Assembly (NCBI GenBank): GCA_043228905.1 | Contig: JBHGNT010000004.1 | Coordinates: 23,436,001 to 23,500,000 of the forward strand | From: Azolla caroliniana | Taxonomy: Eukaryota; Plantae; Polypodiophyta | Length of the DNA: 64,000 bases | Reading direction: 5' to 3' | Shown: piece after piece, positions 355 to 47,049 of the stretch | How positions within the stretch are numbered: position 1 is the first letter of the stretch | Layout of the letters: every line of letters starts with the position of its first letter | Program-made: the position numbers and the translations under genes | Notes under the pieces: model-generated | Told to the model about the DNA's origin: nothing | Seen by the model: only the letters and a program-made list of their open reading frames with translations | The model's database searches: none

Positions 355-3300
355 ATGAATCAATATTATGTTCCTAATTCCTCAGAGCAGGGAGGGTTAA
401 TGAACATGAACATGAAGGTGGGATACAGTGTTGTGGATGATGCCATGGACCTTACCTCAGAGCTAGACCCACGTCTACCTTTGCTCCAAGATGCCCATGC
501 AGGTGACAACCTCCAAGACAAAGTGGTGCTCCTTAGGGTTGATCACAACGTTGTCAAGAAAGGTGACACCAAACCCTAATTCAATATGTGGCTACTTCAA
601 TATGTTGGGATTTATGATATGATGATGTTTCGATAATTGTGGGTGTCGATAAATAAATGTTTATCTTGTTTCAATAAGACTTGGGTATTTATGATATGTT
701 TCAATTAAGGCGGTATCAACCATAATCTCTAGCATACAACTTAATACAGGAATTAAGACTAGGTACAAATTGTTTTGTCAGTTAACTTTGTAACTGGTAA
801 TGCCAATAGCTTTATAGAATGAATATTAAGCCTAAGTAGCCCCTCTCATCTTATCCACCCAAATAGATAAAGGATGGCAATGAATGAAGAACAAAGTCAT
901 TAGCTCCCAATGATTGATGCAGCTAATCTTTGAATTGGGTGTTAATTGTATCATGATCTCGGGGCATGTTTTCTAGTCCATGCAATGTGTCAGTTGCAAT
1001 TTTATGAGTGCATGAACTCAATGCAAGTCAATATTTTGCAATTTATAGTCCTAGAACTTGATCGAAAAATCAATATTGCAATAATGTGCTTGAACTCAAT
1101 GCAATTTATAGTCGTAGAACCTGATTGAAAAATTAATATCACAATAATGTTCTTGATTTCTCTTACCTGTGAAAAATCAATCAATGATATACTTGCTTTC
1201 CTGGAATATCCATATTAGGAAAAATCAATGATCAATATCGAATTGATGTAACGCTTGCAACTATGTACAATATCGTGGAGCGAGGTGGCAGGTAAGCTCA
1301 TTTCACAACTTCTCTTCTCATCTTCTTTTTCCACATGGTTACTAATTTGATTCTACTTTTGGAAGTTTTTTGTTGTTTAGTGATGTAGTTAATGTCTTAT
1401 GTAGGTATTGCACGTTTATGAGTGAATATTTATTTGTTATATGTTGTGAAACATAAGAGACTAATTACCTCAAATTTTGCTACGTATAAATGTCAAAATC
1501 TAGACCCATCTTGATGACACATATTGGGAGGCCATTCGACAAGAAAACTAGAAAGATCAATATAAGACAAGATGATTCGGTGGATGCAGTAGTCTCGTAT
1601 TTGCAACACAAATTGAGGATCAAGTTCGTGGTTCCTCAGTTCCATGTGGATAATGAAAAGGATAGTCGAGGTATCCATGACATTGATACATCCATTAACT
1701 GGTTGATTCAAGATCTTCGTAGCCGTAAAATTGGCGGTATTTATTTACCTAATACTAGGTGGTTTGCGGTAAGTTATTCATATTCTTTTCATGAATCGGT
1801 AGATATGTATCTAATGAATTAGAATGTTCAACCCTCACGATGTCACATGGTTTTTCTTGAAATTAGGGCGAGGAAGACAAAGGAGAGTATATGGAACGAT
1901 TTGTAATTCAATTAGCTGGTTTGGCAGATGTGTATGTAAATGATGCATTTGGATCATGGCAATCACATGCTTCAACTTATCACATTACAAAATTCCTTCC
2001 TTCATATGCTGGCCTTTGCTTGCAAGTATGTATACCCGGTTTTCGATTTGCGGCTTTATATTATCATGTGCAAGTACATGTTCTTGATTGACTTATCTTA
2101 CATGCCAAGATTATTATATGAGGGTTACATATGAGACAAAATGTCTTGATAAAGACTGTATGCGTATGTTTCCGTCAATGTATCCTTTGAATGGAAAAAG
2201 TTACTGCCATATAGCTTTGGATGAATGTGGTGTGAAATTTGTGAAACGCGCACAATGAAGATGACATATGATACACACCATTTTATTACCATGTGATCAT
2301 ACTTCAAGCCTCTTAGGTTTGAAATCTACTCCGTAAAAGAAGGATTGCATGACATTCTACTGAAATGTGTATAACTCCATCTAGATGAAAATTTGCTTGG
2401 CACTCTAGAGTCATGTGATTACTCTAATATGGTTTGCTTGTGTTTTCACTTGTGGCAAATCACTGTTTAGCTGTACTGTTGTGTATATAACATTCTTATA
2501 CTCAAAATGTTACAGTAAATGTATGCCCATATCCACTTACACTACCGGTACATGATTGTTAACTATAGTTTATTGTTTCTTTTTGTTCCATAGGATGAAC
2601 TTTGCCATGTAAAGCTATTATTACAACCTACTAGGCCATTTGTTGCTGTTGTTGCTGGTGCCAAGTATGATACAAAGATTGGGCCATTGGTTGGAATATA
2701 CAATAAGGTTGACAAACTTATTCTAGGTGGAGTAATGTATAACACATACCTTTGTGCGAAGTATGGAGTGAAGATCAAAGGCATACAGGTATCACTAAAT
2801 TATGCATTTGTGATAAAAAATTTGAGTTGAGTTCCACATTCTTTTTTAAAGATGGAGTTTTGTCAAGAAATGGTTTCATGTTTTTTTATTGTGATAGCAG
2901 TTGATCATAAATTTTGATGATGAAATGGTTCCTTTGACCTGTAACTTCTAATGGCATGATATTTAAGATCCATGGTGTGAATGTAGGAATCTGATATAGA
3001 ACTTGCAAGACATCTAGTGGAGCAAGATGCAATTGAAAAGAAAATTATTGAGTTGCCCTTCCTTATCGAGTCGAATATATTGGAAGCAAGGAAGGATGGT
3101 CAATTCCGCAAGATCTCTGTGAAGGTGAAGTATATATGCTGCGAAATGTAGTGAAAACTCCCATCTTTCTTTGATCAAATTTTGTTAGTTAATTTGTAGA
3201 TTAGATCATAAAAGTTCAGGCATTTTGAAAAGTAACTTAAGTTTTGTGTTAATTATATTATTAGGAGTTCACCAAAGGCGCAGAATATAATTACGTTCTC

Positions 3301-4027
3301 GACGTGGATCCCACTTCATTCGAAACAGAACCTTGCAATTCAGCATTGAGATCGGCAAAAACCATTTTTGTAAATGCGGTTATGGGTTTAATGCCTCACT
3401 TTTGGCATGGCACCAGTAAGATGAGCGAGGTTATCAACGAGAATATTACAGCTCAAAAGTTTTTTGGAGGGGGAGATACGCTTCAAGAACTTAAGAGGTA
3501 TGGATTTTCACGATTGAGATCCAACTACCACATCTCTAATTTTTCCTTCAGCTTTGGTGCCTTCAATGTTAGTTTCTAATTCGTTGGATTATTACGTTAG
3601 TTTGTCAAATTGATTCTTGATTACTTTGTGTGTCGACATTTAGTTTCTAACTCATTGGGTTAATATGTTAGTTTGTTAATAATTTGATTCTTGCATCACT
3701 TTGTGTGTGTAAATCAACACTCACAATCTACTGAATATCTAAATGTTCCTTTTCACTTACACAACTTCTCTAATCCGTCTGTCAATTGTCTTCATTCCTA
3801 TTTGTTAGCATTGTCTTAATTCACTGACCTAATCAATCATCTCTCCATGCAGTTTACATCCCAAGCTATATGATGAAGCTTTGCATAGCACAAAATATTA
3901 TTTGTTTACTGGTGGGGGAACTGTCCTGAAGGTGATAGAGGAAGGGGATCCATATGGCCTTGAGATTGTAAGAGCACTCATCGAGAATAAAGAGAGAATG
4001 AGCGATTCACTCAGAGTATCCACATGA
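355..4027 (+). CDS. PGK: Phosphoglycerate kinase-like protein (divergent), 8 exons, ~481 aa
   Basis: GT-AG exons 355-562, 1219-1291, 1504-1768, 1867-2025, 2594-2788, 2987-3124, 3265-3497, 3853-4027 join in frame (1446 nt). PGK motifs in order: [60 protein letters not shown]. Confidence 0.9.
985..1155. repeat. ~70-bp tandem repeat in PGK intron 1
   Basis: 'tgaactcaatgcaa...tttatagtc(c/g)tagaac(t/c)tgat(c/t)gaaaa...aatat' occurs about twice in tandem. Confidence 0.6.
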
Positions 4028-4225
4028 TCTATATAGAGATTGGAGACGATTTTTTATGTGAAAGAATATGGGCTAGAGATTGGCAAACTGTGATCAATAA
4101 TTTTGGTTTTAGTGACATATTGGGGGGAACACATGATCAAAAGAATTTGATCCAATAATGTTTTATATTTTCTAGTGCTTTGCTTTGTAGGATGTTTCTT
4201 TGTAAATATGTTGTTTAAACTTCAA

Positions 4226-4505: not shown

Positions 4506-6374
4506 TTGGCATGGAGCACTATTATTGGTAGCGGGAAATCGTACCAACATGGTGTTCCTAAGGAAATTCACATTTTTAACTATTAATTCAAAGAGGGGCT
4601 TTATTTGCAAAGGAAAAAAACAATTAGGAACACCATATTATACTAGTCTTTTTGTTCGCTGGGACAGCGGCTGCTTCTTAATTGGACATAAAAATTTTGG
4701 AAGCAAAACTAATTGCTCTGTATTTTTTAAATCTCTATCAACGAGATCATGTTGTTTCCATGTCCCAATTGTGCAAGGAATTAGTAGACCCAATTATATC
4801 GCTCTATATGTTTGATCCTATTAATTCAAATATGATGGAACATTGCAAGGATGGACAATATACATCACCAAAATTTCTGACAAATTTGATACTCCACTTC
4901 GTTTAGAATATTTATGCAATCTATAACGCGAAAGTATTTAATTCATGTTCAATCAATCACCTGGGCAAAGAGGTAGGTTCATTGCAAATCTAATTATTAT
5001 GTGTTGTATTCCATAATAAGAATGGATTCTTCAAAATGCCCATTCAACAATCATGGTTATCAATCAATCTTGATTGAAAAGTGTGTCAATTTCCTTTACA
5101 AAAGTATGCAATGCATAAAAATGTGAGCTAACTAATTCTAGAGAGGGTCGCGATATCTTGATTGATTTATTGGATGCGTGCAACCAATGACCAAGTTAAC
5201 AACTTAAGAGGTGGACAGGTTGAGTCAATGATATTATTCCCATACATACATTCTGATATGGAGTTTAAAAAGAAATTAATTAGTTAAAGTTATGCCTCAC
5301 TTTTACTTATCCAGACATACATGGATGGGGTGCAATATGCACCAAATTTGGATACACATTTATATATATCATGTTGTCATAAACATTTTAGTCCATTGCT
5401 ATTTATAGAAAAACAAAGTGTATGTTAAGCTTTAATAAAAGGTGATATCTTTGATATTAATGAAGAATAATAAAAATACTCACACCATCTCATGCTTTTG
5501 AGAGATTGGCATCTCTAATATTCAATAAATAGACAATGTGCATGGATGATCGGAAACAAATGTGCCAAGGCCCAAGAGTATATATTTATTCATGTCCCTT
5601 TTGTATTTTTGAATGTCTTTAAAAGGGCTATTTATTCACATGCTATATAGTTTGAACTTATTAATGTCGTTGGGGCTTTTGGATGTATTGCATGTACGTA
5701 TTGGAGATGGGATATGGACCGAAGCTATCACAAATAAGTAAATGCATACAACTATATGACAAATACTACTACGATTGCATGTATACCATACATATAGGCT
5801 ATATGAAACATATGGGTCAAAGTATGTAGTTATTACATTGGGCATACAAGATGCATGACACTATCATAAATATAATTAAGCAAAATAGCCCGGCATATTA
5901 AGAGTATCTACTACACCAATCATGATAACACGGGGAATCATTGAGTTGGGCGAAACACGATGAAACAAAATGTAAGATACATAATAATTCATTGGGCAGC
6001 ATATAAGTAACATGACATGCCATGCCATGCCATGCATGATAAGAGAGGAGTCGGAGAATCAAATAATAAGGTCAAAAATGAAGGTTAGCGCCCAAAAAAA
6101 TTTGTACATGTTACAAAGAGAGTTCAAGATAGTGAGTGGTGTTTGCCTTGTAAAAAACAAAAACAAAAACAAAAAAAACCAGCTTCTTGACTCCTAAAGA
6201 AAGAATACCCTCTCTATCATGTACACATACATTGTTTATAAAGGTCAAAAAAGAAAAGGAAAAAGGGAGGTGAGGTTAGGTTAGGTTAACTTAACATATT
6301 AGCTTGGTGTAGTAGGGTACTAAAAAGAAGAAGGAACTTGCTTGGCTCCCAAGTTTTAAAAATAAAAATGAATC

Positions 6375-8241
6375 TCATTGGCAGCATGAGCCAAGTGTAG
6401 TAGTAGTGGTAGAAGAAGTAGTAGTAGTGTTGGTATCATCAATGTCATTGTGGTGGTGGTGGTGGTCGTGGTAATCGACCCCGTGGTTCTGCTGGACCTC
6501 GATGTCGTGTTTGTGGTCCGAGGGGGGTAGGAAGCGCGCCCAAAAGGGATGGGCGCGCCACACGCGGTCCATCTCCTCGATGGGCACGTTCTTGGTCTCG
6601 GGCAAGAAGAAGTAGACGAAGGCGGACATGAGGAGCACCCAGGCGGCGAAGAAGAGGAAGATGGCGAACTTGAAGTGGCAAAGCATGGCGAGGAAGGCCT
6701 GGGCGATGACGAAGGTGAAGAAGAGGTTGACGGACACGTTGAGGGCTTGGCCAGCGGAGCGGATCTCGAGGGGGAAGATCTCGCTAGGAACGAGCCAGCC
6801 GAGGGGGCCCCAGGACCAGGCGAAGGCCGAGACGTAGACGCAGATGAGAACCACGACGACGAGGGCCCAGGCGCGGTCGATGGACCCCGTCCCTTGGGCG
6901 CCGAACTTGGCGCCCAGGATGGCGCCCACCGCCAGCTGGGACACCACCATTTGGGCGCCGCCTTCCAGGAAGAGCGTCCGCCGGCCCACGCGGTCCACCA
7001 CGGCGATGGACACGAACGTGGCCACCACGTTGACCCCCCCCGTGATGACCGCCGAGTAGAGCGCCGCGTCGCTGGTGAAGCCCATTGTCTGGAACAGCAC
7101 CGGCGCGTAGAACATGATCGCGTTTATCCCCGTGAGCTGCTGGAAGAACGGGATCATGACCGCCATCACCAGCTGCGGCCGGTATCGCCGCTCCAGTATG
7201 TTCCGCCATGGCCGCTCCACCCGCCTCGCCGCCTCGCTGGCCTGCACGATGTCCTCGTACTCCATGCCCACGTCTTGGACCCCCCTGATCTTCTGTAGCA
7301 TGGCCTTCCCTGCCTCGCGCTCCCCGCGCTCGATCATGCTGTTGGGCGTGTCCGGCAGCAGCGCCGAGCCGGCGGTCATGATGATGGCCGGCACCGACGC
7401 CAGCCCGAGCGACACCCTCCACCCCCACGGGCTCAGCCTCCCCGTGCCGTAGTTGATGAGGTTCGCGCACAGTATGCCCAACGTGATGGCCAGCTGAAAC
7501 ATTATGTTGAGCGCCCCTCGGAACTTGGCCGGCGCCATCTCCGACAGGTACACTGGAACAGACTGCACACACCCCACACACAACCAATGAATGAATATAG
7601 AACATCTGTGGGAACCCGTTTCTTTTTGGATTCAGGAAACTTCCATGGGAAACCCTAACGGCTCCACCTACCCTACCTGATTGGCGAAGCCGACGCCGAC
7701 GCCCAGCAGGATCCGGCCCACGATCAGCATGGGCACGTTCATCGCGAAGCCGTTCAGCGCGGAGCCGGCTAGGAAGCTCAACCCCCCCGACAGCATGGAC
7801 GGCTTCCGCCCGTACTTCCTGGTCACGCCCGACGCCGCGAAGGACGCCAGCAGCCCCGCCACGTACAGGGAGGATGTGAAGGTCGTCAGGATCTGGCTGT
7901 CGAACTTGCAGTAGTCGTTGGCGTTGGGGGCTTGCTTCTGCCGCCAGACGTCCGGGAAGAAGAGGGAGAGGAAATCGTCCATGGACGTGACACCACCTGT
8001 GGAAAGGAAAGAAACAAGGTTAGTTAGGGTTAGTTAGGGTTAGGCAGCCATGGATGGGATGGGATCGGATGGTACCTGAAATGCCGATGTCGTAGCCAAA
8101 GATCAGGCCACCGCTGGCGGCCATGATGCAGGAGATGATGACGAAGGAGGTGGCTTTGCCGGGGTATTGACGGACCTTGGCGGATGTGCCGCCGCCGCCG
8201 CCGCCGCCATGGGAGGGATTTGTGAAACCGCCGCCAGCCAT
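6375..8241 (-). CDS. STP: Sugar transport protein (STP/MST hexose:H+ symporter, MFS), 3 exons, ~557 aa
   Basis: Exons 8241-8076, 7996-7677, 7562-6375 with GT-AG introns. Motifs [90 protein letters not shown]. Confidence 0.96.
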
Positions 8242-8249
8242 GATTCAAA

Positions 8250-10285: not shown

Positions 10286-10347
10286 GTGTTCGAATAATGC
10301 GGTATTTTAATTATAAATATAATACGTTCAAATTGGCTTATATCAAT

Positions 10348-10421
10348 GTCTGGATGGTGTAGTTGGTTATCACGCTAGTCTCACACACTAGAGGTCTCCG
10401 GTTCGAGTCCGGGTTCAGACA
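10348..10421 (+). tRNA. tRNA-Val(CAC)
   Basis: Acceptor stem GTCTGGA/TTCAGAC plus discriminator A; A box TGGTGTAGTTGG; anticodon arm CTAGT-CT-CAC-AC-ACTAG; T arm CCGGTTCGAGTCCGG; T-run shortly downstream. Confidence 0.95.
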
Positions 10422-11122
10422 ATTTTATCTTCTTCTTACCAAAAAGCTTCCTTCTTTTTTATTTCATTCATTGTTAGGATGTTTTCTTTCGTTTATCCAA
10501 AAGCAACATTTGTCAATGAGATAAACCTCTTTTTGTAAGAAAAAAAAAAGAATCCGAACTAAGACAAGCTACATAATAATTGTTATAATCTGTTCCTCTC
10601 AACAAGTTTTAAAACCATATACATGATGTTACATGAGATATCGGTGTGCCACATGGGAGTGCTCTTACAATATTAGTATCGTGCATGAGCACCGGTTGTT
10701 AGTCACACATATGTTGATATTTTGTGTGTTATATATGTATATGTGGTAGAAAGTTGCATGTATGAACATGTTGGGATCACTAGGTCTTGTATGAGAGTCC
10801 CTATATTTTATACAAAGGTTTAAATCAAATACAGAAAAAAAGAATGAAACGTCCTATATAAAATTTACAATGTTACAAACATGAAATTGCTATACAATTA
10901 GCGTGGGATTTTGCTTTTTTGAGGCCTCCATGCGATTCTTATTAAATTTATGCGTTTTGATGCCCATGGTTTCTGAACCCCTTTTGAATCTGAGAGAGGC
11001 AAAACAAGGCATGAATTGCCCATACATATTGATATGATCTCTCACTCATGTCATGAAAACGAGCTTGGGAGGTTTCAGAGGTAGAGATCACACAAACCAT
11101 ACCCTGCCATGGCAGCCACAGA

Positions 11123-13096
11123 ATGAGAACCCAAACTCTTCTTCATCATGATTTGACACTTGTGGACTTACTCAGGATTTTTGCTAAGAAGAAGGATCTA
11201 CACAATGGCATGGCCCTACATGACCACATTCTTCACAAGGGTTTGCTTCAAAAGTGCCCTTACCTTGCTAGCAGTATTGTTTGTATGTATGCCGAATGCG
11301 GAGTTCTAGAAAAAGCTCAGCAAGTGCTTCTAGACCTGCCGGTCCGAGATGTAGTCTCTTGGTCTGCATTGATCGCAGGGTATTCTCGACAAGGCCAAGG
11401 CCATGAAGCATTGAGATGTTTCGAATGCATGCAGAGAGAAGGATTTTCTCCAAATGAGGTTACCTTCACTTGTATCCTCAAGGCATGTGGAAACATACGT
11501 GCCATTGATAAGGGTGAACAAATCCATGACGAGATTGCCAGTAAAGGCTTGCTGAAAAGAAATGTCGTGCTCGGTAATGCTTTGGTGGATATGTATGCCA
11601 AATGTGGTATGCTCGCCAAAGCTCAGGGTGTGCTCGAAGAGCTTCCATCTCGAAATGTTGTTTCTTGGTCGACCTTGATTGCAGGGTATGCCCAAAATGG
11701 CCAAGCTCTTGAAGCAGTAAGATGTTTGGAGAGGATGAGAGGGGAGGGCATCTCTCCGAATGAGGTCACTTTCGCCTGCATCTTAAAGGCTTGTGGTAGC
11801 ATGGGGGTAATTGAAAAGGGAAAAGAAATCCATGATGAGATTGTTGGAAGAGGGCTCTTGCAAAAGAGTATCGTGCTTGGCAATGCTTTGGTGGACATGT
11901 ATGCCAAATGTGGGGTTCTTGAAAAGGCTTCGCAAGTACTTGAAGAGCTTCCCAGCCGGAATGTGGTTTCCTGGAATGCACTAATTGCTGGATATGCCCA
12001 GCATGAGAAAGGGCACGATGCATTGAACTGTTATACGCGCATGCAAAGGGAAGGCTTCTCTCCGAATGAGATCACCTTCTCGTCTATCCTCAATGCCTGT
12101 GGCAAAATAGGAGCTATTGATAAGGGAAAAGAAATTCACGATGAGATTGTCTGTAGAGGCTTATTGGAGAAAAATATCGTGCTTGGTAATGCTTTGGTAA
12201 ATATGTATGCCAAATGTGGCTTACTCTCGAAAGCCCGACAAGTTCTTCAAGAGCTTCCCAGTCGAAATGTAGCATCTTGGTCTGCTTTAATCACAGGGTA
12301 TACTCAATATGAGCAAGGACATGAAGCACTCAATTGTTTCTCACAGATGCAAAGAGAGGGTACCCCTCCCAATGAGATCACTTTTCTATGCATCCTCAAG
12401 GCATGTGGTAGCATAGGGGCTATTGACAAGGGCAAACAAATTCATGGTGAAATTGTGAATAGAGGCTTGCTGAAGAAACATATTGTGCTTGGGAATGCGT
12501 TGGTGGATATGTATGCTACTTGTGGTGACCTTACAAGAGCTCGGAAAGTGTTCGAAGAACTTCCGATTCGAGATATAGTCTCATGGTCATCGTTAATTGC
12601 GGGGTATGCTCAACATGGGCATGGTAATGAAGTAGTTGATATGTTGGAAAAGATGGAGAGGGAGGATGGCCTCTCGCCAAATGATGTAACATTCCTATCT
12701 ATTTTAAGTGGATGTAGTCGCTCGGGGAGAGTGGATGAGGCACAAACATATTATGAGAGTATGAGCACAAAGTATGGGATTACACCAAATCTAGAGCACC
12801 ATACATGCATGGTGTTTGTTTTTGGATGGGCAGGGCTCTTTGATAAGGCTATCTCGGTGATTGAGGCGATGCCGACATCTGACTATTCTCCAGTTTGGAT
12901 TGCACTCTTGAGCGGTTGCCAGAAATGGGGGAAAGTGAATCTCGCATTATTGGCTTTTGATCAGGCAATGAAAGCAAACAATAACCTTGCAGCAGCTTAT
13001 GTTGCGATGGCTACTATTTATGCTGATGCAGGTATGGAGGAGGATGCCATCAAGGTTGAAACAATGAGAACAAAGAATGCTTGTTGGAATAAGTAG
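11123..13096 (+). CDS. Pentatricopeptide repeat protein, PLS class with C-terminal E domain, no DYW (putative organellar RNA-editing factor), 657 aa
   Basis: Intronless ORF with repeating triplets (NVVSWxALIAGYAQ / PNEVTFxCILKACG / IVLGNALVDMYAKCG), then EHHTCMV...WIALLSGC...AAAYVAMATIYADAG (E-type region). Stops before any DYW domain. Confidence 0.93.
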   Translation: MRTQTLLHHDLTLVDLLRIFAKKKDLHNGMALHDHILHKGLLQKCPYLASSIVCMYAECGVLEKAQQVLLDLPVRDVVSWSALIAGYSRQGQGHEALRCFECMQREGFSPNEVTFTCILKACGNIRAIDKGEQIHDEIASKGLLKRNVVLGNALVDMYAKCGMLAKAQGVLEELPSRNVVSWSTLIAGYAQNGQALEAVRCLERMRGEGISPNEVTFACILKACGSMGVIEKGKEIHDEIVGRGLLQKSIVLGNALVDMYAKCGVLEKASQVLEELPSRNVVSWNALIAGYAQHEKGHDALNCYTRMQREGFSPNEITFSSILNACGKIGAIDKGKEIHDEIVCRGLLEKNIVLGNALVNMYAKCGLLSKARQVLQELPSRNVASWSALITGYTQYEQGHEALNCFSQMQREGTPPNEITFLCILKACGSIGAIDKGKQIHGEIVNRGLLKKHIVLGNALVDMYATCGDLTRARKVFEELPIRDIVSWSSLIAGYAQHGHGNEVVDMLEKMEREDGLSPNDVTFLSILSGCSRSGRVDEAQTYYESMSTKYGITPNLEHHTCMVFVFGWAGLFDKAISVIEAMPTSDYSPVWIALLSGCQKWGKVNLALLAFDQAMKANNNLAAAYVAMATIYADAGMEEDAIKVETMRTKNACWNK

Positions 13097-22049: not shown

Positions 22050-23080
22050 TTCGGCTCGTATTGGCCAGTGATGTGGGGTACTTTTTTTTTCCAAAAAAAA
22101 CTCCTTCCATTAGTTATAAAATTTTACAAATGAGACGATTATGTACAAATCCCTGAAGGGACGCAATAGTTCCATCTTATGTGGATGCCCACTAACTCAA
22201 GAAAGGGAGAGGACGACCATTGTTGGATGAAGACTATTCGTTGTCTTTCAACTCCCTCGGAGCTGCCGTTAAGGCCATAATATTGGCTCTTCATAGTGGC
22301 TACAATTTCACTCCATATCTCTTGCAGTAACCTTGTTGGATGTGCGGTTTGGTTGGAGAAGACTCGCCTACATCGTTGTTTCCATAGAATCCAAAGGGTT
22401 ATTGGGCTCACCAATTCCAACACCTCTTGAGATTTGTCATTAAGAGGAATGGAGTGGACATTGCCACCGGAGGAGAAAAGGACCTCTTGTGCTTTTATCA
22501 CCAAAGTCATCCCCTCCTCCTGATGCTCGTATCTGCCAATTGCAGCCTGCCATGATAGCCAACATATATTTCCCCACTTGATTGAGCCTTGCATCTAACA
22601 TAATTGCAACAAGCGGCCAACCCCCCACCATATTCGATGGGATGTTGGGCAGTCCCACAAAGCGTGTCATATGGATTCTACTACATGTGGGCACTCTACA
22701 CAATTAGGAGAGCTAAGGTTCCCACGTTGCCATGCTCCTACCGGTAGGGACTTATGTATTAATAGCCATTGGAACGTGGTAATACGCCTCGCGTGTTGTT
22801 GTTTCCAGATTTTCTGCCAAAACTTAGCGATTATTGTGGAAGGAACTTGAAATGTATGCCAGACCTTCACAGTAGCCGGTTCTCGGTGCGGGGTACTAGT
22901 TTATATATATAGGTACCTACGTACATTAAGTAGTTAGTTTGAAAGGATATGTACGTAGTCTCATATTCTTGAACTCGCTCGGAAGGTGATTCCTCGATTT
23001 CTGTATAAGCCACCTTGTATAGTCTTTCTATAATAATCTCTCCTAACTAATGGGAAAGTAGCTTCTTTCTGGGAGAAAAA
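22050..23080 (+). mobile_element. Short LINE 3'UTR insertion (family of the 21526-21742 tail) split by a nested LINE
   Basis: 16-bp TSD aatagtatcacttctc at 22034-22049 and 23081-23096. The two halves (22050-22082 and 22890-23080) match 21526-21742. Confidence 0.85.
22083..22886 (-). mobile_element. 5'-truncated L1-like LINE nested in the previous element
   Basis: Minus strand reads FWQKIW...FQWLLIHKSLPVG...CVECPHVVES (zf-RVT-like) and LWILWKQRCRRVF...WNYCVPS. Poly-T at 22082; TSD tg(t/c)ggggtact on both sides. Confidence 0.85.
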
Positions 23081-23273
23081 AATAGTATCACTTCTCCAAA
23101 CATCTTTTTTCCTAATCCATTTGAGCATTTTAGTTTCTATCCCATAAAGATCTCTTGAATTGTGAGTGGGCAATTTCTTAAGCCCTATGCAAACTTCCTC
23201 AATAGTAAAGAAGGAAGAATATATGAAAAAGAACCCTAACAAATTGTCTTTAATATATTTGATTACTTGATTT

Positions 23274-23275
<2 letters not shown>

Positions 23276-23332
<57 letters not shown>
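23276..23332. repeat. (AG)n microsatellite
   Basis: Perfect GA dinucleotide run. Confidence 0.95.
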
Positions 23333-23336
<4 letters not shown>

Positions 23337-24209
23337 ATTATTGTTCTAGAGATCAAATATGACATATAGGACAAAGTGAAACGTGCTCAATAATTTTACT
23401 AATAAACGTTGCAATTGAGAGTGTACATGGTGATTTTGAGAGGAATATCTTGTGAGTGGTTTGGATAGGTAATGTGTGAAAAGCAAACTCAAGTGTAGTT
23501 GAATGTGCGGTGCATTGCATCAAAGTGTAATATTCCTGAACTTATTTAGGTAATGAGTCACCATAGTTGTGACTTGAAATCGAAGAGAATATGCCAACTA
23601 AGTATTTTGGAAGCAATCGTGTGGATAGCGAACAAATGGATGGGCTCTTGCATGAATTGTTGAGTGTCGTTCCATTGTTCAAAAAAGATGAAGATTTTGT
23701 AGTTTGGTGTAACATATGCAATATAATGTGTGAAACATGAGCCTCAACATCTTTCCCAATTCATGATACATTGACATTTCAAAAAAGAACTCATTCACAT
23801 AGGAATGTATTGATGCTTCGTGAAGTAAATGATGTCGTCCATTTTCCAAACCATTTCTTTCTAATATACATCCATCTGTAACCCAAAATTTTGTTTTTAT
23901 GTGTCTTTTGATTGTTTTTTACTTCAAAAGCAATCCTAGGAAGTTAATGCAAGGGCCTTTTTTTAACCTTAAACATGCATGCAACAACTCTTTCCATGGC
24001 TATGATCTCGCCTACAAGAAAGGAGACTTGTTTGGCAAATCAAGGAGAAGATATAAATCTTGTAAAATGTGGAAGAAATAAAATGTAATCTCAAAACATA
24101 TCATCATTTAACTATTTAATTGAATTAATCCTCAATATGTTTTGGTGTGCAAATATGATGTCTTGGTATAGACGTTAAAAACACACAAGGCATGTGTTTG
24201 ACAAGCAAG

Positions 24210-26207
24210 CTATTCGTACTGTTAAAGCGTGTATTAGGGGATTTCTTTGGGCTGGGATGAGGAAAGACAATGCGGCAGCCAAAGTATCATGGTCCACATT
24301 GATTCTTCCCAAGAGTAAGGGGGGTTTAGGATTAGTTGACCCTGGATTGCAGAGTTAGGCATTGTTATGTAAGATATTGGTAAGAAGCTTGCTACCTGGT
24401 GATGAGTTATGGAAAACATTGATACATAATAGGAGCATGCTATGGAGTCCAAGACTGGGTGGGCAATGGAAGTCACACAAAGCGTGGCCTTTTTGCATGG
24501 ACTTAAAATTGAGGAAATCTAACTGATTGGCTGATCGTACTTGTATGTCAGTGATGCAGGCGTGGAGTATGCTTCGTGGGCATCTAAGTCGGAATCGTCC
24601 AAGTACTAGTGCTGAATGGATGCGCCAACCCCTATTGTGGAACGAGACCGTGCAATCGCCAGAAGGAATGATGCTTGGACAAAGCAAGCGCATGCCGTGG
24701 GCTATATTGCATTGTCTAGGGATACACTCAGTGGCTGATTGGCTGCGGCTGTCCGACAGTAATCGTGATCAATTATATGAAGACATGGGAAAGGTCAGAA
24801 ATGGCAGAAAGATGCTTGACGTAGTCAATACAACTGTCTCCTCGCTTCCTATTGGTAATGAGGAAGAGGGTGAATGGTGTGGCCAATGTGATGGTACCGG
24901 AAATATTATCAATGTCAGGGGTCTAGGAAAGAGTGGGAAGACCGTCCTGATGGGATTATTAGATGAAAGTACAGGCTGGTACCCTATTAGAATTGTGGCA
25001 AGACACGGAAAGAAATGGAAGGTGAATCCACCAGTCGAAGAGGTCGAGGAGGATTGGATCTTGTACGTGGTTGAAGGCAAGCCTCTCGAGCGCGTAGAAT
25101 GGGATCCCGCTGAATATAGGTGGAAGGGAGAACAAGCTAAATCACTAGGTTTCTTCGAATACTCGACGCACTTGGGGAGAAAGTTAGGTTCGTATCGTGA
25201 GAAATGTGCCAACAAGTGGACCCATGCAGCTATCGATTCAGTCTTCGTGGATAGAACAAGGAGCAGGATATGGAACTCATCCCTTCCCGAGCGGATCAAA
25301 GTGTTTTTCTAGTTAATCACCCATCGGGCTGTTCCAACGGGAGAGTGGCTTGGGAATAGAGGCGGCATGAGTGGTTGCAAGGCGTGTAGTGCGAGCTTGG
25401 AGGACATCACTCATTGTTTGTGGTGTTGCCCACGAGCGCAAGAAATCTGGCCGAGGAGCTTAAGAATCTTGGCTCGTTTTGGGGTTGAGGTTCATGTATC
25501 GAGCGCAGCAATCACTTGGTTGGCCACTGAATCGGCCTCGTGGTTTCAAGGGTGGAATGGAAACAGTCCTTCTTTAATGGTGAAGCAAGGATCTGTGCAA
25601 CCAGCAACGCAAGGAGGTTTATTCTTCTTACAAGAACGCTACGTGGACATATGGGTATTAGTGGTCGGCCTTACGGTCTGGCAAGTGTGGGTATCTCGGT
25701 GCAAGGAGACCCTCGCAGGTAAACGAACCCCACCGGCTGAGAATTTAATGATGATATGGTTTAATCTTATTTCTACGTTGCGAGGTGAGTTTGAAAATCT
25801 TCAAGGGCCATCTGATGCAAGTGAAGAAGCTAGAGCTCGATTCCTTCGAAAATGGAGCGGTTCGTCAATGCTGCAGATAATGGATGGTAAAGTGAAGTGG
25901 AATTATCAACCACCGCGGTGGCTGTTCCCTCCAAGTGTTCCTAACATCTAGATGGGTGCTGCCATGAGGAGCGAATGGAGGACATCTATGTTGAATTCTG
26001 TTTTGTATGAGGCTCACGTGGAGAATATGTGTTCGAGTAATGCTATACACATAGAATGATGTGGTGTTTTGGAGTTGTTTTTTTTATGTTGTTTCATCTA
26101 CACATTGTTTACCTTTGACATGCAAGATGTCTTGTAAGATATGAGTTGTAAACGATTCCTTTGTACATTCTTAACTAATGGAAGTAGATGTTTTTGGAAA
26201 AAAAAAA
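24210..26207 (+). mobile_element. L1-like LINE, ~2 kb 3' portion of ORF2 + 3'UTR + poly(A)
   Basis: FLWAG...AKVSWSTLILPK-KGGLG post-RT motif; RIWNSSLPERIKVF; CKACSASLEDITHCLWCC zf-RVT; WQVWVSRC; WNYQPPRWLFPP; A-tail ~26198. Confidence 0.88.
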
Positions 26208-31573: not shown

Positions 31574-33882
31574 ATGGCGGCAGGAGGCTTCGTGAGCGGC
31601 GCTGCCGACGCGCGTGACTACCCGGGCCGCGCAACTTTCTTCGTCATCGTCTCCTGCATCATGGCCGCCAGCGGAGGCCTCATTTTTGGTTATGACATTG
31701 GAATCTCAGGTTAATATATGCACACCTCCTACCTCCATAGTTTCAGTTAGTATTGCTCCCACAGATCGATCATTCATTCTTCCAATATCTCTGTATCTGT
31801 TCTTCTCTTCTTGATTTCCTGTTATTGTTACCTGAATGCATTTTCTTATTGATGATGATTCTCTCTGATCACATCACAGGAGGTGTCACCGGAATGGATG
31901 ATTTCCTGTCCAAATTCTTCCCCGATGTCTACCTCAAGTCTCATCTTCTGGCGGATGAAAACACGAACGAGTACTGCAAATTCGACAGTCAGAAGCTGAC
32001 CTCGTTCACATCATCGCTGTATCTGGCAGGTCTCGTGGCCTCATTCGTGGCCTCCACTGTGACCCGGAGATTTGGGCGGAAGCCCTCCATGTTGGCCGGA
32101 GGCCTGAGCTTCCTGGCCGGGGCGGCCCTCAATGGCGCTGCAGAGAACATCGCCATGCTCATCATAGGCCGCATCTTGCTTGGCGTTGGTGTAGGGTTCG
32201 CGAATCAGGTATGTATTGCTCAAGAATCAAATAATAGATACTTTGGCTAATCTTTCCTTTCTGTACTGAATCCGTTCTTTCCCATGCCCTTTCCTTCTCA
32301 TCTAACGCCATCGAATTTTATCTTGCTTTCTTCCTGTTTTCCCCCCCTCCCCTATCCTTCACAGTCTGTCCCCCTCTACCTGTCTGAGATGGCTCCTGCC
32401 AAATACAGAGGCGCACTCAACATCATGTTCCAGCTCGCCATTACATTTGGGATCTTGTGTGCCAATCTCATCAATTATGGTACTCAGAAGATAACCCCAT
32501 GGGGTTGGAGGCTCTCCCTAGGCCTCGCCGCCGTCCCTGCCATCATCATGACGGTCGGATCGGCCCTCTTACCAGACACGCCCAACAGCATGATCGAGCG
32601 GGGCGAGCGCGAGAAGGGCAAGCTGATGCTTCAGAAGATCAGAGGGATCAAAGATGTGAGCATGGAGTATGATGACATTGTGCAGGCGAGCGAGACCGCG
32701 AAGCTGGTCGAGCACCCGTGGAGGAACATACTAGAGCGCCGTTACCGGCCCCACCTGGTCATGGCCATCATGATCCCCGTCTTCCAGCAACTCACAGGGA
32801 TCAATGCCATCATGTTCTATGCCCCGGTCCTCTTCCAGACCATCGGCTTCACGAATGATGCCGCGCTCTACTCGGCCGTCATTACGGGCGGCGTGAACGT
32901 GCTGGCCACGTTCGTGTCCATCGCTGTGGTCGACAAAGTTGGGCGCCGTACCCTCTTCTTGGAGGCTGGGGTTCAGATGTTCATCGCGCAGGTAAAACAA
33001 AAAAGAAAGGAACAAACACAATACATATGAGGAAAGAGCAAGTAAATGTAAATTGGGACAAAAAAAAATTTTAGATCCAAGAAGATGTGGAAGGATGGAT
33101 GGGTTTTCCTTTGATTTCCTTGAATTGCATTTTGCATTTTGTTGTTTGTTTTGTTTGGGTTTTCTGAGCATTTGATAAAGTAGGGTTCCAATCAAATATA
33201 TAATTGCTGGGAAGTCAACTATATTCAATGATATATGTAGTTATATTTATGTAAGTAGTAATTGGCTGTCTTTCAAAGTATGTTGTAGTAGTAGGTCACA
33301 ACACAATCAAAGAAAAGCTCTTTGTTTTCTTTTTAATTAAATGTTTTGCATTCATATTGAATGCCTCCCCCCAGTCAGTAAAATCACCCCCCATGCCCTC
33401 GTGTACATATATGTGTGCAGGTGGTGATTGGTACTATCCTAGGGATCAAGTTCGGGCTCCAAGGTACAGGGTCCATTGACAAAGTGTGGGCGATTGTTGT
33501 GGTGGTTGTCATATGTGTCTATGTGTCGGCATTCGCTTGGTCGTGGGGCCCGCTCGGGTGGCTTGTGCCGAGCGAGATATTCCCGCTCGAGATCCGCTCG
33601 GCTGGCCAAGCAATAAACGTGTCGGTCAACCTGCTCTTCACCTTCATCATCGCGCAGGCATTCCTCGCCATGTTGTGCCATTTCAAGTTCGGCATCTTCC
33701 TCTTCTTCGCGGGCTGGGTGATCATCATGTCCCTTTTCATCTACTTCTTCTTGCCGGAGACGAAGAATGTACCCATTGAGGAGATGGACCGTGTGTGGCG
33801 TGCTCATCCCTTTTGGACCCGATTCATCCCTCCTCCGGACGATAAGAATGATCTTGAGATCACTAATGCGCCTCAACATTAG
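31574..33882 (+). CDS. STP: Sugar transport protein (STP/MST), 4 exons, ~517 aa
   Basis: Exons 31574-31709, 31880-32208, 32365-32991, 33421-33882 with GT-AG introns; same STP motifs as the 6375-8241 gene and high similarity to it. Confidence 0.96.
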
Positions 33883-39221: not shown

Positions 39222-40085
39222 TTCCCCATGTAGTAACATTAGGTCCATATGCAACATCAATGAGGCGCAACATACGTTTCCAAATAGAACATGAGGCCAT
39301 ACAGTTCCATAAGCCATGTTGCATTGATTCCAAGTGAAGCCCACAAAAAGAGCAAGTTTTGGTTCCCTCTTCCCTATGCATCCATTCCAAGACTGGAAGT
39401 GCATCGTGGACACATAACCATCTAAATGTAATGATTTTGTGAGGAATCTATAGAGCCCACAACTATTTCCAAAATGGCAATATTGAATGCATAGGAATAT
39501 TATTATTTAACCATCTCAATACTGGGGAAATGTCTTTTGGATGGACGCAAATGTGGATAAGCATAATTATGAAAGGGAAAAGATATTATTTACCCTTCAA
39601 ACTAGGGGAAGGCAAGTTAAGGGCATACCATACTCAAGCTCAAATCAGTTGAATATGAATGCCACAGTCTGGGCTACAATATCATCGGTGGTTCTATGGA
39701 ATATTTGGATAGATCGATGCAAAAATGTGTTTCAGCAAATAAAGCAAAATCTTGCTCATTGTGTGAAGGAAATTTGGTCGATGCTTATATCAATTTTAAA
39801 AGGTCAATATGACTCCTTCACGGGTAATGAAGATATGATTTTTCTAAAACAACAATCCTTTAAAGGCAAATGGAAGGATTTGTTAGTTTTTGTGGAGAGA
39901 AATGACAAAATGGATTGGCAATATGTACCCCCGCGATGGTTGTTTCTTCCATAGGCGGAGGTTTGTTTCAATTATGACATAATGGGGGATAACTTACTTG
40001 CCACTAGATTGTATCATTATATGTCTTGTATATGCTTTTTGGATTGGTAATGGAAACTATGGTGTAGTTTATTTTTGAAAAAAAA
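39222..40085 (+). mobile_element. L1-like insertion with 5' inversion
   Basis: TSD aactaatcatgagat (39207-39221 and after the A-tail). 39222-~39520 encodes CSFCGLHLESMQHGLWNC...TWGN on the minus strand; 39523 onward continues WGNVFW...WQYVPPRWLFLP on the plus strand. Confidence 0.88.
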
Positions 40086-41620: not shown

Positions 41621-42819
41621 TTTCCTCTAGTCTTTCTTTTGGTTTCCCTCATCCTCTTATCCTTTTTCTATACAATGGCTTCTGTTAGCGCCCAAGAGTA
41701 CCAATCCGTTTTCTCCGAGCTACAGTGTCTTAAAGAAAAATTTGTTGCCTTGGAACAAGAAAACCAATGGTTGTTAGGGGATCTTCAACAAATCGCCCTA
41801 GAAAAACAACAAACGTAGCAACAACATGGGGAGTTAGCGTTACGTGTGCAACAACTCGAAGCAGTGTTGCAACAACAAGGATCAAGTCCCCATGGATTTC
41901 ATAAAGAGCCCAAGATTGGACTTCCTGTGAAATTTGATGGAACACGATTGCAATTTAGGGGATTCCTCAATCAGGTACGCTTAGTCATTCAAATGCATCC
42001 TTCTCGATACCCCACTGATGCATCCCGAGTTGGCCTAATAGGCATGTTGCTTAGAGGCTCAGCCTTGGCATGGTTTGCTCCGCTTCTGGAAAAACAATCG
42101 CCCTTACTTAATAACTTTGAAGACTTTATTAGTGAGTTTAAAGCTTGCTTTGGAGATACAGACAACATCCGGACGACGATCAACAAAATCCAACGATTGC
42201 GTCAAGGTGATCGTCCAGCCTCTGGCTACGCATCGGATTTTCGTCTACTCGTTTCAGATATCCCCTGGGATGATCATGCACTAATGGAGCAGTTTCACGA
42301 TGGCCTGCGAAACGATGTCAAAGATCTACTTCTAACATTCCCCGAAGAACCAAAGTCTCTTACAGAGGCAATCAGTCGAGCGGTCCGATGTGACAACCGC
42401 CTTTTTGAACGGCGTTCGGAACGTCAATTACAAATACCACGCTCTAGGCCGGAGCCCACTTACGCCTCAGTCGTGGCTAAACCGTTTGCATGAGACATAC
42501 CTCAAGCAAATACTCTAACACTGATGGAGATCGACACCATGCGTCGACGTGGCCTGTTATCGGAAGAAGAAAAGCAACGACGACGTGCAAATTGATTATG
42601 TCTTCATTGCAGTGGACCAGGGCATATCACAATCAATTGTCCCCATAGGCCAAGAAGACAAGTAAATCAAATCATAGCATGTACTAAACCCGAGTCAATT
42701 CTCCCCTTAGGAGTGTCTGATAGTATTAATAGTATCAATAGAGTGTCTGATAGTATTAATAGTACTAGTAGCCCAAGTATCTCAAACAAATTTGAAATCC
42801 TTAGTCAATTAGATGAAGA

Positions 42820-42832
42820 GTTAAACGATTGA
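42820..42832 (+). promoter_or_regulatory. Putative -1 ribosomal frameshift site (G TTA AAC) at the gag/pol junction
   Basis: The gag frame reads GAG TTA AAC GAT TGA; the protease ORF (42829-) is in the -1 frame. The same heptamer plus stop occurs in the relative at 53260-53248 (minus strand). Confidence 0.7.
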
Positions 42833-45800: not shown

Positions 45801-47049
45801 ACCAATCCTCGCGCCGAGGATCATTTGGAGAGGCTACGCAAGATCCAAATGGATCTCTCTACTCATCTTCGTCATGCTCAACACACATAGAAGACTTATG
45901 CGGATCATCATCGGCTTCCCTCCTCTTTTGCCATCGGAGATCAAGTATGGTTCTTACGTCGTCACATCAAGACTACTCGATCGTGCGACAAATTGGATTA
46001 TCGACGACTTGGTCCTTTCCGTATTACTAGTAAAGTTAATGATGTCACGTTCCGCCTTGATCTCCATCCGCATCTTCAGATCCATTCGGTTTTCCATAGC
46101 TCTCTTCTTGAACCTTATATAGCAAACACTATTCCCGATCATGTTCACCACCACCGCCCCCGCTTGAGTTGGAAGTTGGCCCGGAGTATGAAGTTGTTGC
46201 CGTCCTCGATTCCAAACTTGTTCGCAAAAAACTTTATTATTTGATCGATTGGCTCGACTATAGTCCAAGCGAACGTACTTGGGAACCCGTCGAGCATGTC
46301 GCCAATGCTCAGGATCTTCTTGTTGAGTTCCACCGAAAGTATTCGGACAAACCCGGTCCGCAATCAACGCAGACTCGTTCCACTCGTCATCGTAAGGGGG
46401 AGATAGTGTCATGATATGGCAAGACTCAAACACATGACCTTATGTTATATGGGTCGAGCTCTTGACCATTATACCATCTATTGTAATAAGTATAATATTA
46501 TTTTCATTTAAGTTTTGTTATAGGAAATTAATGTATATTCCAGATTTCTCTAGAACATTCTAGAAGCTTCAGGATTACTCCTGAGAACACTATAAAAGAA
46601 GGCACTAGGCATTATTTTGAACCAAATTGGTTCAACGCCAATCTTAAGCCTCATAGCCATCTTGTACTTACTCTTCCTATAATATATCGTTTGTTATCAT
46701 CATCTCTCTCTCTCTCTCTCTCTTCTCTTCTCTTTCCTCCCTCTTGGGAGCCTTACGTAGTCCTGTCCTCTTAGTTTTACTAATAGTACTTCCCTTCTCT
46801 AGTACTAATTCTCTCTCTGTTTTAGTACTATTCTTGACAATGACCAACCCACATATATCTTTTGTCTTCCTCATACTTTCAACAATATATCTTTATCTTA
46901 CGAAGTTTTAGCATCAACCCACATATATCTTTTGTATTCATCCATTGAAGTAACAACTTTATTTGGCATGTTGTTACATTCTTCGTAGAGATTCCAATTG
47001 ATTAACTTGTATGGACCACATCATGATGTTCCTTTTTCTAATGTGTGTG

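What the first reader, a model, noticed from the sequence alone, without database searches (positions are those of the whole stretch)
355..4027. Intact but non-canonical phosphoglycerate kinase, unlike normal plant cytosolic or plastid PGK
Seen: eight clean GT-AG exons give an uninterrupted ~481-aa PGK-fold protein, yet near-invariant motifs are rewritten. RVDHNVV replaces RxDxNVP; LPNTRWF replaces LENx[14 protein letters not shown] replaces NDAFGTAHRAHAS (one residue shorter, basic-patch His-Arg lost); GAKYDTKI replaces GxKVSx[12 protein letters not shown] replaces WNGPMGVFE (ribose-binding Glu lost); [10 protein letters not shown] replaces HISTGGGASL. Established: plant PGKs keep the canonical forms, and those residues bind 3-PG and nucleotide. 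Inference: this is a separate PGK lineage, possibly acquired horizontally from bacteria and later intronised, and it may have altered substrate or nucleotide specificity. No obvious transit peptide.
Basis: partly seen in the sequence, partly recalled or inferred. Interest (0 to 1): 0.8.

Follow-up and report, generated by a model that had tools for sequence, protein, structure and literature searches.

The report
Bacteria-derived PGK4A kinase in a fern
This fern gene encodes an intact member of an unusual, already published branch (PGK4A) of the sugar-metabolism enzyme phosphoglycerate kinase that green plants likely took from bacteria long ago; it likely still runs the normal reaction, probably in the cytosol, but no test of it was found in print.

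Summary
Real, but largely known. Eight GT-AG exons give a 481-aa PGK-fold protein; one contig from a close relative lacks all seven introns (pN/pS about 0.07). It is PGK4A (Foflonker & Blaby-Haas 2020); moss copies were reported as a delta-proteobacterial transfer in 2012. Relatives occur in ferns, other seed-free plants, Ginkgo, Taxus, streptophyte algae and Mamiellophyceae (no named angiosperm), form one clade inside bacteria, and share no intron with canonical PGK. Most 'rewritten' motifs keep their catalytic residues; the lost contacts are His150-Arg151 (now Trp-Gln) and ribose-binding Glu323, with a rebuilt base pocket. Evidence for function: in one Desulfobacterota order 32 of 61 sampled genomes have PGK4A as their only PGK, one of them a single 4.8-Mb contig with gap, tpi and enolase; Arg151 reappears in 11 of 35 sole copies. 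Both canonical PGK genes of this fern carry transit-peptide-like leaders, so PGK4A likely supplies cytosolic PGK. The published arsenate link is weak here (no ArsJ in this genome or 50 bacterial carriers). Nucleotide preference is open. The scan noted this family before in a moss and in bacteria.

The parts
355..562 (+). exon 1 (ATG; aa 1-69; land-plant N-terminal extension, Asp63/Asn65 of the 3-PG site)
   Evidence: donor confirmed by X2
1219..1291 (+). exon 2 (aa 70-93; catalytic Arg77 = Arg36 of B. stearothermophilus)
1504..1768 (+). exon 3 (aa 94-182; His100, Arg103, Arg179; family-specific insertion)
1867..2025 (+). exon 4 (aa 183-235; Trp213-Gln214 in place of His150-Arg151)
2594..2788 (+). 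exon 5 (aa 236-300; Lys259, Lys263; rebuilt base-pocket loop)
2987..3124 (+). exon 6 (aa 301-346)
3265..3497 (+). exon 7 (aa 347-423; Asn383, loop lacking the ribose-binding Glu, GGGDT with Mg-binding Asp417)
3853..4027 (+). exon 8 (aa 424-481; C-terminal GGG motif; TGA at 4025-4027)
4028..4159 (+). 3' untranslated region covered by the spliced relative contig X2
   Evidence: piece 3851-4159

Best explanation
The gene encodes a PGK4A-family protein with the full phosphoglycerate kinase fold and catalytic core, which likely catalyses the ordinary reversible transfer between 1,3-bisphosphoglycerate and a nucleoside diphosphate, probably as the cytosolic glycolytic PGK of this fern. Shown: gene structure, splicing in a relative, purifying selection, predicted fold of a close homologue, kept residues, family range and tree. 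Inferred: the 3-PG carboxylate/hydroxyl contacts (Asp63, Asn65, Arg77), three of the four phosphate contacts (His100, Arg103, Arg179), both lysines, Asn383 and the Mg-binding GGGD motif would still support domain closure and phosphoryl transfer. Loss of Arg151 would lower 3-PG affinity or anion activation. Loss of the ribose-binding Glu and the rebuilt base pocket would loosen or shift nucleotide preference (for example towards GDP/GTP). The gene likely entered the ancestor of green plants from an anaerobic bacterium related to Desulfobacterota, gained seven introns of its own, and was likely lost in flowering plants, where a short copy of the plastid-type PGK does the cytosolic job.
For: Fold: AlphaFold model of the 80%-identical Adiantum protein, pLDDT 91; Foldseek E 1e-28 to 1PHP; VIA Z 39.4, rmsd 2.1 over 383 residues. 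Residues; roles from PMC7729029 section 3.1. Sole PGK: in a Desulfobacterota sample of 151 genomes, 5 of 23 PGK4A carriers have no canonical PGK, while all 128 non-carriers have one, three as contig-end fragments. In the order of G141, 32 of 61 genomes have only PGK4A, 21 have canonical PGK, 8 have none or a 35-bit hit. 5 of 21 in the family of G139 have only PGK4A. 32 of 33 such genomes checked have GAPDH. G336 is one 4.80-Mb contig with only PGK4A, gap next to tpi, and enolase 1.3 kb from PGK4A. Arg is back at the Arg151 position in 11 of 35 sole copies against 1 of 78 in the first locus set. Cytosol: no transit-peptide-like leader; only two canonical PGK loci found in this genome, both with long Ser-rich leaders; in the alignment of PMC8256493 every canonical PGK of moss, liverwort, hornwort, Chara, Azolla and Salvinia has a long leader.
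Against: No activity was measured and none was found in print. In most carriers it is an extra copy: 38 of 50 first-tested bacterial genomes also have canonical PGK and 6 more have another divergent PGK; all 81 Nitrospirota sampled have canonical PGK; in the family of G111 only 1 of 17 has PGK4A alone. It never sat beside gap or tpi in 80 loci. The cleanest sole case (G336) has the Arg back, so it does not test the Gln form that plants carry; the Gln-bearing sole copies (23 of 35) lie in multi-contig assemblies whose completeness the tool did not print. Sole copies are related, so counts are not independent events. Both canonical fern genes have a Met at the end of the leader that could give a cytosolic isoform. 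Selaginella has a short canonical PGK as well as PGK4A. The PMC8256493 set was filtered towards organellar isoforms.
Confidence: 0.62

Rival explanations
1. Its main job is arsenate defence: it recycles 3-PG released from 1-arseno-3-phosphoglycerate, or handles the arseno-ester itself, as proposed for algal PGK3/PGK4A.
For: PMC7826186: Mamiellophyceae PGK4A genes lie next to ArsJ and/or GAPDH3, and a Chlamydomonas mutant of the other subfamily (PGK3) is arsenate-sensitive. ACR3 is also kept in non-angiosperms and absent from angiosperms (PMC13674352), and this genome has two ACR3 copies.
Against: No ArsJ match in this genome (exon-wise search, assembly may be incomplete) or in 0 of 50 bacterial carriers at E 1e-20. 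No recurring arsenic gene was identified among neighbours of 80 loci (only some clusters were annotated). The paper itself exempts streptophyte copies from the clustering. The reaction would still be the PGK reaction.
Confidence: 0.12
2. It phosphorylates a different phospho-acid, with a site widened or shifted by the Trp-Gln change and the invariant His after Asp63.
For: His150-Arg151 are replaced by Trp-Gln in 155-156 of 157 rows, and His64 is fixed in 153 of 157. It is usually kept beside a canonical PGK. Arg returns mainly where canonical PGK is missing, which suggests the Gln form is tuned for something else.
Against: All other 3-PG contacts are kept. Whole clades with Gln have no other PGK. 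No neighbouring pathway gene points to another substrate.
Confidence: 0.11
3. It is a PGK that uses pyrophosphate or polyphosphate instead of a nucleotide.
For: The ribose-binding Glu is gone (acidic residue in that loop in 3 of 157 rows) and the base pocket is rebuilt, while the phosphate-binding residues stay. A PFK with the GGDD motif (PPi-type signature, recalled) is adjacent in 11 of 80 loci. A 1,3-diphosphoglycerate:polyphosphate phosphotransferase activity is cited from Neurospora (reference list of PMC13604480).
Against: The 11 PFK neighbours are all Nitrospirota and probably few events. The base-flanking position stays hydrophobic or aromatic (Phe, Leu or Tyr in 152 of 157), and both alpha-phosphate contacts are kept. 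No fungal member was seen.
Confidence: 0.08
4. It is a non-catalytic pseudoenzyme or scaffold.
For: Two conserved ligand contacts are lost; dead PGK isoforms exist in kinetoplastids (PMC7729029).
Against: All chemistry residues are near-invariant from bacteria to ferns; it is the only PGK in genomes that keep gap, tpi and enolase.
Confidence: 0.04

Closest known systems
PGK4A subfamily (Foflonker & Blaby-Haas 2020, PMC7826186)
   Same: Same taxa define the clade here: Mamiellophyceae (Ostreococcus lucimarinus, Bathycoccus prasinos), Klebsormidium nitens, Selaginella; stand-alone PGK-like protein distinct from canonical PGK; function stated as unknown.
   Different: Here extended to ferns, Psilotum, hornwort, liverworts, mosses, Zygnematophyceae, Ginkgo and Taxus, and to hundreds of bacteria; no ArsJ in this genome; the paper gives no residue analysis in the passages read.
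Horizontally acquired moss PGK (Yue et al. 2012, PMC3493653, Table 1 and Fig. S17 legend)
   Same: [quoted passage not shown]
   Different: Identity of their GI numbers with P0022's cluster was not checked; they filed it as glycolysis without comment on the active site.
Canonical PGK (EC 2.7.2.3; PF00162; B. stearothermophilus 1PHP; plant plastid-type PGK)
   Same: Whole two-domain fold (Z 38-39) and 11 of the named catalytic or binding positions.
   Different: About 29% identity; His150-Arg151 to Trp-Gln with one residue fewer; Glu323 loop shortened; Gly220 to Val, Gly317-Pro318 to Ala-Val, Leu237 region rebuilt; two insertions; no shared intron (0 of 7 against 5).
PGK4B (PGK-like domain fused to TrmB-like methyltransferase)
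   Same: Non-canonical PGK-like protein of streptophytes; a likely copy lies on contig C15 of this genome.
   Different: The window gene ends at a stop with no fused domain; the C15 gene is much closer to canonical PGK (E 3.5e-17 for one exon) than to this protein (E 2.4e-4).
GDP/GTP-preferring PGK of Entamoeba histolytica (PMC7729029)
   Same: Precedent that changes in the base pocket switch nucleotide preference in an otherwise normal PGK.
   Different: A canonical-type PGK; not compared residue by residue here.

Membership tests
PGK fold family (PF00162) | Sequence match to PF00162 and two-domain PGK fold | tested here: met
   4 of 8 exons hit PF00162; model of the 80%-identical P0002 matches solved PGKs
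Canonical PGK (EC 2.7.2.3) | 3-PG contacts Asp21, Asn23, Arg36, His59, Arg62, Arg118 | tested here: met
   Asp63, Asn65, Arg77, His100, Arg103, Arg179; kept in 153-157 of 157 family rows
Canonical PGK (EC 2.7.2.3) | Third basic-patch arginine (Arg151; pig Arg170) and His150 | tested here: not met
   Trp213-Gln214 by profile alignment; Gln in 155 of 157 rows
Canonical PGK (EC 2.7.2.3) | Phosphate/Mg contacts Lys197, Lys201, Asn316, Gly349-351, Asp352, Ser/Thr353, C-terminal GGG | tested here: met
   Lys259, Lys263, Asn383, Gly414-416, Asp417, Thr418, Gly444-446; 154-157 of 157 rows
Canonical PGK (EC 2.7.2.3) | Acidic residue 323 binding the ribose hydroxyls | tested here: not met
   No Asp/Glu in that loop in 154 of 157 rows; Glu in 101 of 103 comparison rows
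Canonical PGK (EC 2.7.2.3) | Measured 1,3-BPG:ADP phosphotransferase activity | not testable with these tools
   Only indirect genomic support
Canonical land-plant PGK (plastid-type and its cytosolic copies) | Falls in the plant canonical clade | tested here: not met
   29-30% identity to the genome's own canonical PGKs; family forms a separate clade
Canonical land-plant PGK (plastid-type and its cytosolic copies) | Shared intron positions | tested here: not met
   0 of 7 introns coincide with the 5 of the canonical genes; the closest pair is one codon apart
PGK4A (PMC7826186) | Clade of Mamiellophyceae plus early-diverging streptophytes (K. nitens, Selaginella), distinct from canonical PGK | tested here: met
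   Green clade 95/98 holding Ostreococcus, Bathycoccus, two K. nitens, Selaginella and this protein
PGK4A (PMC7826186) | Stand-alone PGK-like domain without TrmB fusion | tested here: met
   Stop at 4025-4027; spliced contig runs into 3' UTR
PGK4A (PMC7826186) | Same accessions as in the paper's Fig. 3C tree | not tested
   Figure not viewable; supplement search gave no PGK4A identifiers
ArsJ-GAPDH3-PGK arsenate cluster | Adjacent to or co-occurring with ArsJ | tested here: not met
   Neighbours are a P450 gene and a sugar transporter; no ArsJ match in G000 or in 50 bacterial carriers; the paper exempts streptophyte PGK4A from this feature
PGK4B (PGK-TrmB fusion) | C-terminal TrmB-like methyltransferase domain | tested here: not met
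   Protein ends after the PGK fold

The most novel reading that the evidence does not exclude
PGK4A is a phosphoglycerate kinase that has given up the nucleoside half of its cofactor and runs on pyrophosphate or polyphosphate. It would be the missing gene for the old 1,3-diphosphoglycerate:polyphosphate phosphotransferase activity, and would mean that cytosolic glycolysis in ferns, mosses and gymnosperms passes through a bacterial, ATP-independent PGK that flowering plants replaced.
Probability: 0.08. Interest if true: 0.88.

Novelty: new member of a known kind. Interest (0 to 1): 0.45.

Why it matters
The family and its bacterial origin are published, so the gene itself is not a discovery. 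Its function is open, and two testable points come out of this work. First, a PGK lacking two 'invariant' ligand contacts appears to serve as the only PGK in whole bacterial lineages, with the arginine coming back in some of them. That is a natural experiment on what the basic patch and the ribose-binding Glu are for. Second, seed-free plants seem to lack a dedicated cytosolic canonical PGK. If PGK4A fills that role, the cytosolic PGK of early land plants was a horizontally acquired bacterial enzyme, and the plastid-derived cytosolic PGK of flowering plants is a late replacement. One knock-out in moss or Marchantia and one enzyme assay would settle both.

Tried and rejected
Alternative splice sites: several in-frame GT/AG pairs exist near introns 2-6; the X2 contig supports the chosen ones. 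RNA evidence for this species itself: no RNA holder listed; run X5 of the same species label covered only a short stretch. Recent or fern-specific transfer: rejected. Two separate transfers into streptophytes and Mamiellophyceae: a FastTree run split them with weak support, but the mixture-model tree joins them (95/98), and forcing streptophytes with the Desulfobacterota clade alone was rejected only narrowly (p-AU 0.038; group named after seeing the first tree). Operon context with gap/tpi: not seen in 80 loci. ArsJ link: not found. NCBIfam has no model for the family. The ESM Atlas gave only generic PGK clusters. Search for an upstream 5' UTR exon matching the loose end of X2: a similar short repeat lies about 9 kb upstream but does not join cleanly; left open. 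Literature searches for a biochemical test found none; the library lacks most subscription papers, and the yeast Arg168 mutant data could not be read. No complex prediction was run, since no binding claim is made. The spliced window protein itself was not folded or searched remotely; single exons and the 80%-identical Adiantum protein stood in.
Full report
OBSERVATION. The eight exons given under parts join through seven GT..AG introns into 481 codons with no internal stop, and all six quoted motifs are present. Four of the eight exons hit Pfam PGK on their own. No RNA run of this organism was listed, but a 1774-nt contig from a close relative (X2, about 96% alike, RNA status a guess) skips all seven introns at these junctions, and X3 from the same study shows five of them. 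The 34 listed coding differences are 27 synonymous and 7 conservative, pN/pS about 0.07 (differences near piece ends are not listed). The host is a fern by protein similarity (80% to Adiantum).

THE FAMILY. Exon 3 found 1321 longer proteins; two full-length searches followed (best 120 shown each). Named eukaryotic members: Adiantum, Ceratopteris, Psilotum, Selaginella, Diphasiastrum, Ginkgo, Taxus, Physcomitrium, Ceratodon, Sphagnum, Marchantia, Riccia, Calypogeia, Nothoceros, Klebsormidium, gene models whose ID prefixes I read as Mesotaenium and Spirogloea (recalled), Ostreococcus lucimarinus and Bathycoccus prasinos. No named angiosperm appears, although bacterial hits of lower score are listed; some unnamed records cannot be placed. 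Bacterial members are about 60% identical and come mainly from Desulfobacterota and Nitrospirota (586 candidate stretches, 80 kept). A profile search of 1.84 billion representatives separates the family (up to 697 bits) from ordinary PGKs (about 200 bits or less). In a 264-row FastTree the 157 family rows plus one divergent row form one clade on a long stem. A 65-row IQ-TREE run (LG+C20+F+G4) joins streptophytes and Mamiellophyceae (95/98) inside bacteria, next to a Desulfobacterota group (89/87, not starred); the root rests on four long unnamed rows. Holding streptophytes with that group alone is rejected narrowly (p-AU 0.038). The simplest reading is one transfer into the ancestor of green plants; the exact donor is not fixed. 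None of the seven introns matches the five of this genome's canonical PGKs, and a paralogue on C11 shares all seven.

WHAT IS IN PRINT. Yue et al. 2012 (PMC3493653; I saw the Table 1 passage and the Fig. S17 legend and table row in the supplement, not the figure) list two moss PGKs from delta-proteobacteria with no Arabidopsis homologue. Foflonker & Blaby-Haas 2020 (PMC7826186; abstract, passages, one supplement row, not Fig. 3C) name PGK4A (Mamiellophyceae, K. nitens, Selaginella) and PGK4B (TrmB fusion), report Mamiellophyceae PGK4A next to ArsJ/GAPDH3, and call the function unknown. Ten literature searches found no biochemical test.

ANATOMY. The model of the Adiantum homologue (pLDDT 91, pTM 0.88) has the whole PGK fold. 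I mapped positions to B. stearothermophilus PGK from the printed alignments and took their roles from PMC7729029 section 3.1 (read whole); the roles of Arg36, Lys197 and the C-terminal GGG are recalled. Counts are over 157 de-replicated family rows (of 298) and 103 comparison rows. Kept: Asp21, Asn23, Arg36, His59, Arg62, Arg118, Lys197, Lys201, Asn316, Gly349-351, Asp352, Ser/Thr353 and the last GGG (153-157 of 157). Changed and fixed: His150-Arg151 to Trp-Gln with one residue fewer; Gly220 to Val or another aliphatic; Gly317-Pro318 to Ala-Val; the Leu237 loop rebuilt around an invariant Gly; the Glu323 loop shortened, acidic in only 3 of 157. So the chemistry is intact, one phosphate clamp is lost and the nucleoside pocket is rebuilt.

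DOES IT DO THE PGK REACTION? Usually it is a second copy: 38 of 50 tested carriers have canonical PGK and 6 more have another divergent PGK (50 of the 80 loci tested); all 81 Nitrospirota sampled have canonical PGK, 13 with a second hit of PGK4A score. But in 151 genomes of the phylum of G011, 5 of 23 carriers have no canonical PGK, whereas all 128 non-carriers have one (three as fragments). Following that up: in the order of G141, 29 genomes have only a full-length PGK4A and 3 only a partial one, 21 have canonical PGK (7 with PGK4A too), 1 has a weak hit and 7 none, of 61 (identity confirmed). In the family of G139, 5 of 21 have only PGK4A; in the family of G111 only 1 of 17, which may be incompleteness. 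GAPDH is present in 32 of 33 checked. G336 is one 4.80-Mb contig with gap beside tpi, enolase 1.3 kb from PGK4A and no other PGK at E up to 10. At the Arg151 position the 35 sole copies have Gln 23, Arg 11, Ser 1; the first locus set has Arg in 1 of 78 (in a genome with canonical PGK), and 388 of 389 stored proteins with the motif have Gln. On a tree built without that residue the state changes 7 times, at least 2 forced by strong branches. I infer that the site still faces the 3-phosphate, that the family can carry flux alone, and that Arg is favoured when it must. Limits: completeness was not printed, the genomes are related, and the cleanest case has Arg.

ROLE IN THE FERN. The protein has no transit-peptide-like leader, whereas both canonical genes found do. 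In the PGK alignment of PMC8256493 (passages, one discussion section, supplement 1 parts 48-49) all canonical copies of Physcomitrium, Marchantia, Anthoceros, Chara, Azolla and Salvinia have long leaders, and the moss and liverwort copies lack the Met at the leader's end; short copies appear for Arabidopsis, Brachypodium and Selaginella. That set was filtered towards organellar forms. PGK4A is therefore the best candidate for the cytosolic PGK of seed-free plants. This is inference; an internal-start isoform of the fern's canonical genes is not excluded.

RIVALS. Arsenate defence rests on algal gene order and on ACR3 sharing the same range (PMC13674352, passages only), but ArsJ was not found here or in 50 bacterial carriers. 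A pyrophosphate or polyphosphate donor fits the lost ribose contact and the GGDD-type PFK neighbour in 11 of 80 loci (the meaning of GGDD is recalled; the polyphosphate activity is seen only as a reference in PMC13604480), but those loci are one lineage and the base pocket stays hydrophobic. A different acceptor and a dead enzyme fit the sole-copy data poorly.

VERDICT. Real, intact, selected gene; a new member of the published, untested PGK4A family. Best mechanism: ordinary PGK chemistry with retuned affinities, probably cytosolic (0.62). Interest 0.45: origin and name are known and the scan has met the family before, but the function is an open and cheap experiment.

Noticed in passing
G000:C11:17041200-17044350 (L024): Second PGK4A gene of this genome, 80% identical, same seven intron positions, open frame; the two copies are sisters in the tree.
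   Followed up: yes
G000:C9 (L021) and G000:C12 (L022): The only two canonical PGK genes found; both have long Ser-rich leaders that end in a Met which could start a cytosolic isoform. Their leaders resemble Azolla and Salvinia sequences in the supplement of PMC8256493.
   Followed up: partly
G000:C15:3221800-3226100 (L023): Degenerate PGK-like gene followed by small exons with a methyltransferase-like motif (recalled as TrmB; the two exons tested gave no Pfam hit): the likely PGK4B fusion. It is closer to canonical PGK than to PGK4A, which questions grouping 4A with 4B.
   Followed up: partly
L106-L111 (G048, G025, G033, G031, G044, G024): Six Desulfobacteria genomes lack canonical PGK and carry a third, about 540-aa divergent PGK-like gene (archaeal-like by recall, not tested). 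In three it sits in the gene context that canonical pgk has in L118 and L122.
   Followed up: partly
G224, G231, G216, G238, G207 (Nitrospirota sample): Five genomes have a further, about 500-530-aa PGK-like frame that matches PF00162 in two separate pieces.
   Followed up: no
L082:2065-3279 and 10 other Nitrospirota loci: A divergent PFK with a GGDD motif directly next to PGK4A, co-directional in 9 loci and convergent in 2.
   Followed up: partly
G319: A 1.7-Mb genome whose largest contig exceeds 1.5 Mb shows only a 35-bit PF00162 match, so possibly no PGK at all.
   Followed up: no
P0106, P0110 (Spirogloea gene models): PGK4A joined to DUF1365 in two predicted proteins; possibly merged gene models.
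   Followed up: no
L025:5596-7630 (minus strand, about 2-4 kb upstream of the window): Cytochrome P450 gene (CYP51-like by recall) transcribed away from the PGK4A gene.
   Followed up: no
window 6375-8242 (-) and 31741-33882 (+): Two sugar-transporter (STP-like) genes; the first is unusually GC-rich (57% in 6001-8000) against about 35% around it.
   Followed up: no
window 11057-13096 (+); 10347-10422 (+): Intronless PPR gene of 679 codons and a tRNA-Val(CAC) gene.
   Followed up: no
window 41819-46439; 22139-25951; 39511-39954: Broken LTR-retrotransposon (gag, protease, RT, integrase-like frames) and LINE-like fragments, judged by eye.
   Followed up: no
G000:C7:1367300-1372200: Two tandem ACR3 arsenite-transporter genes.
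   Followed up: no
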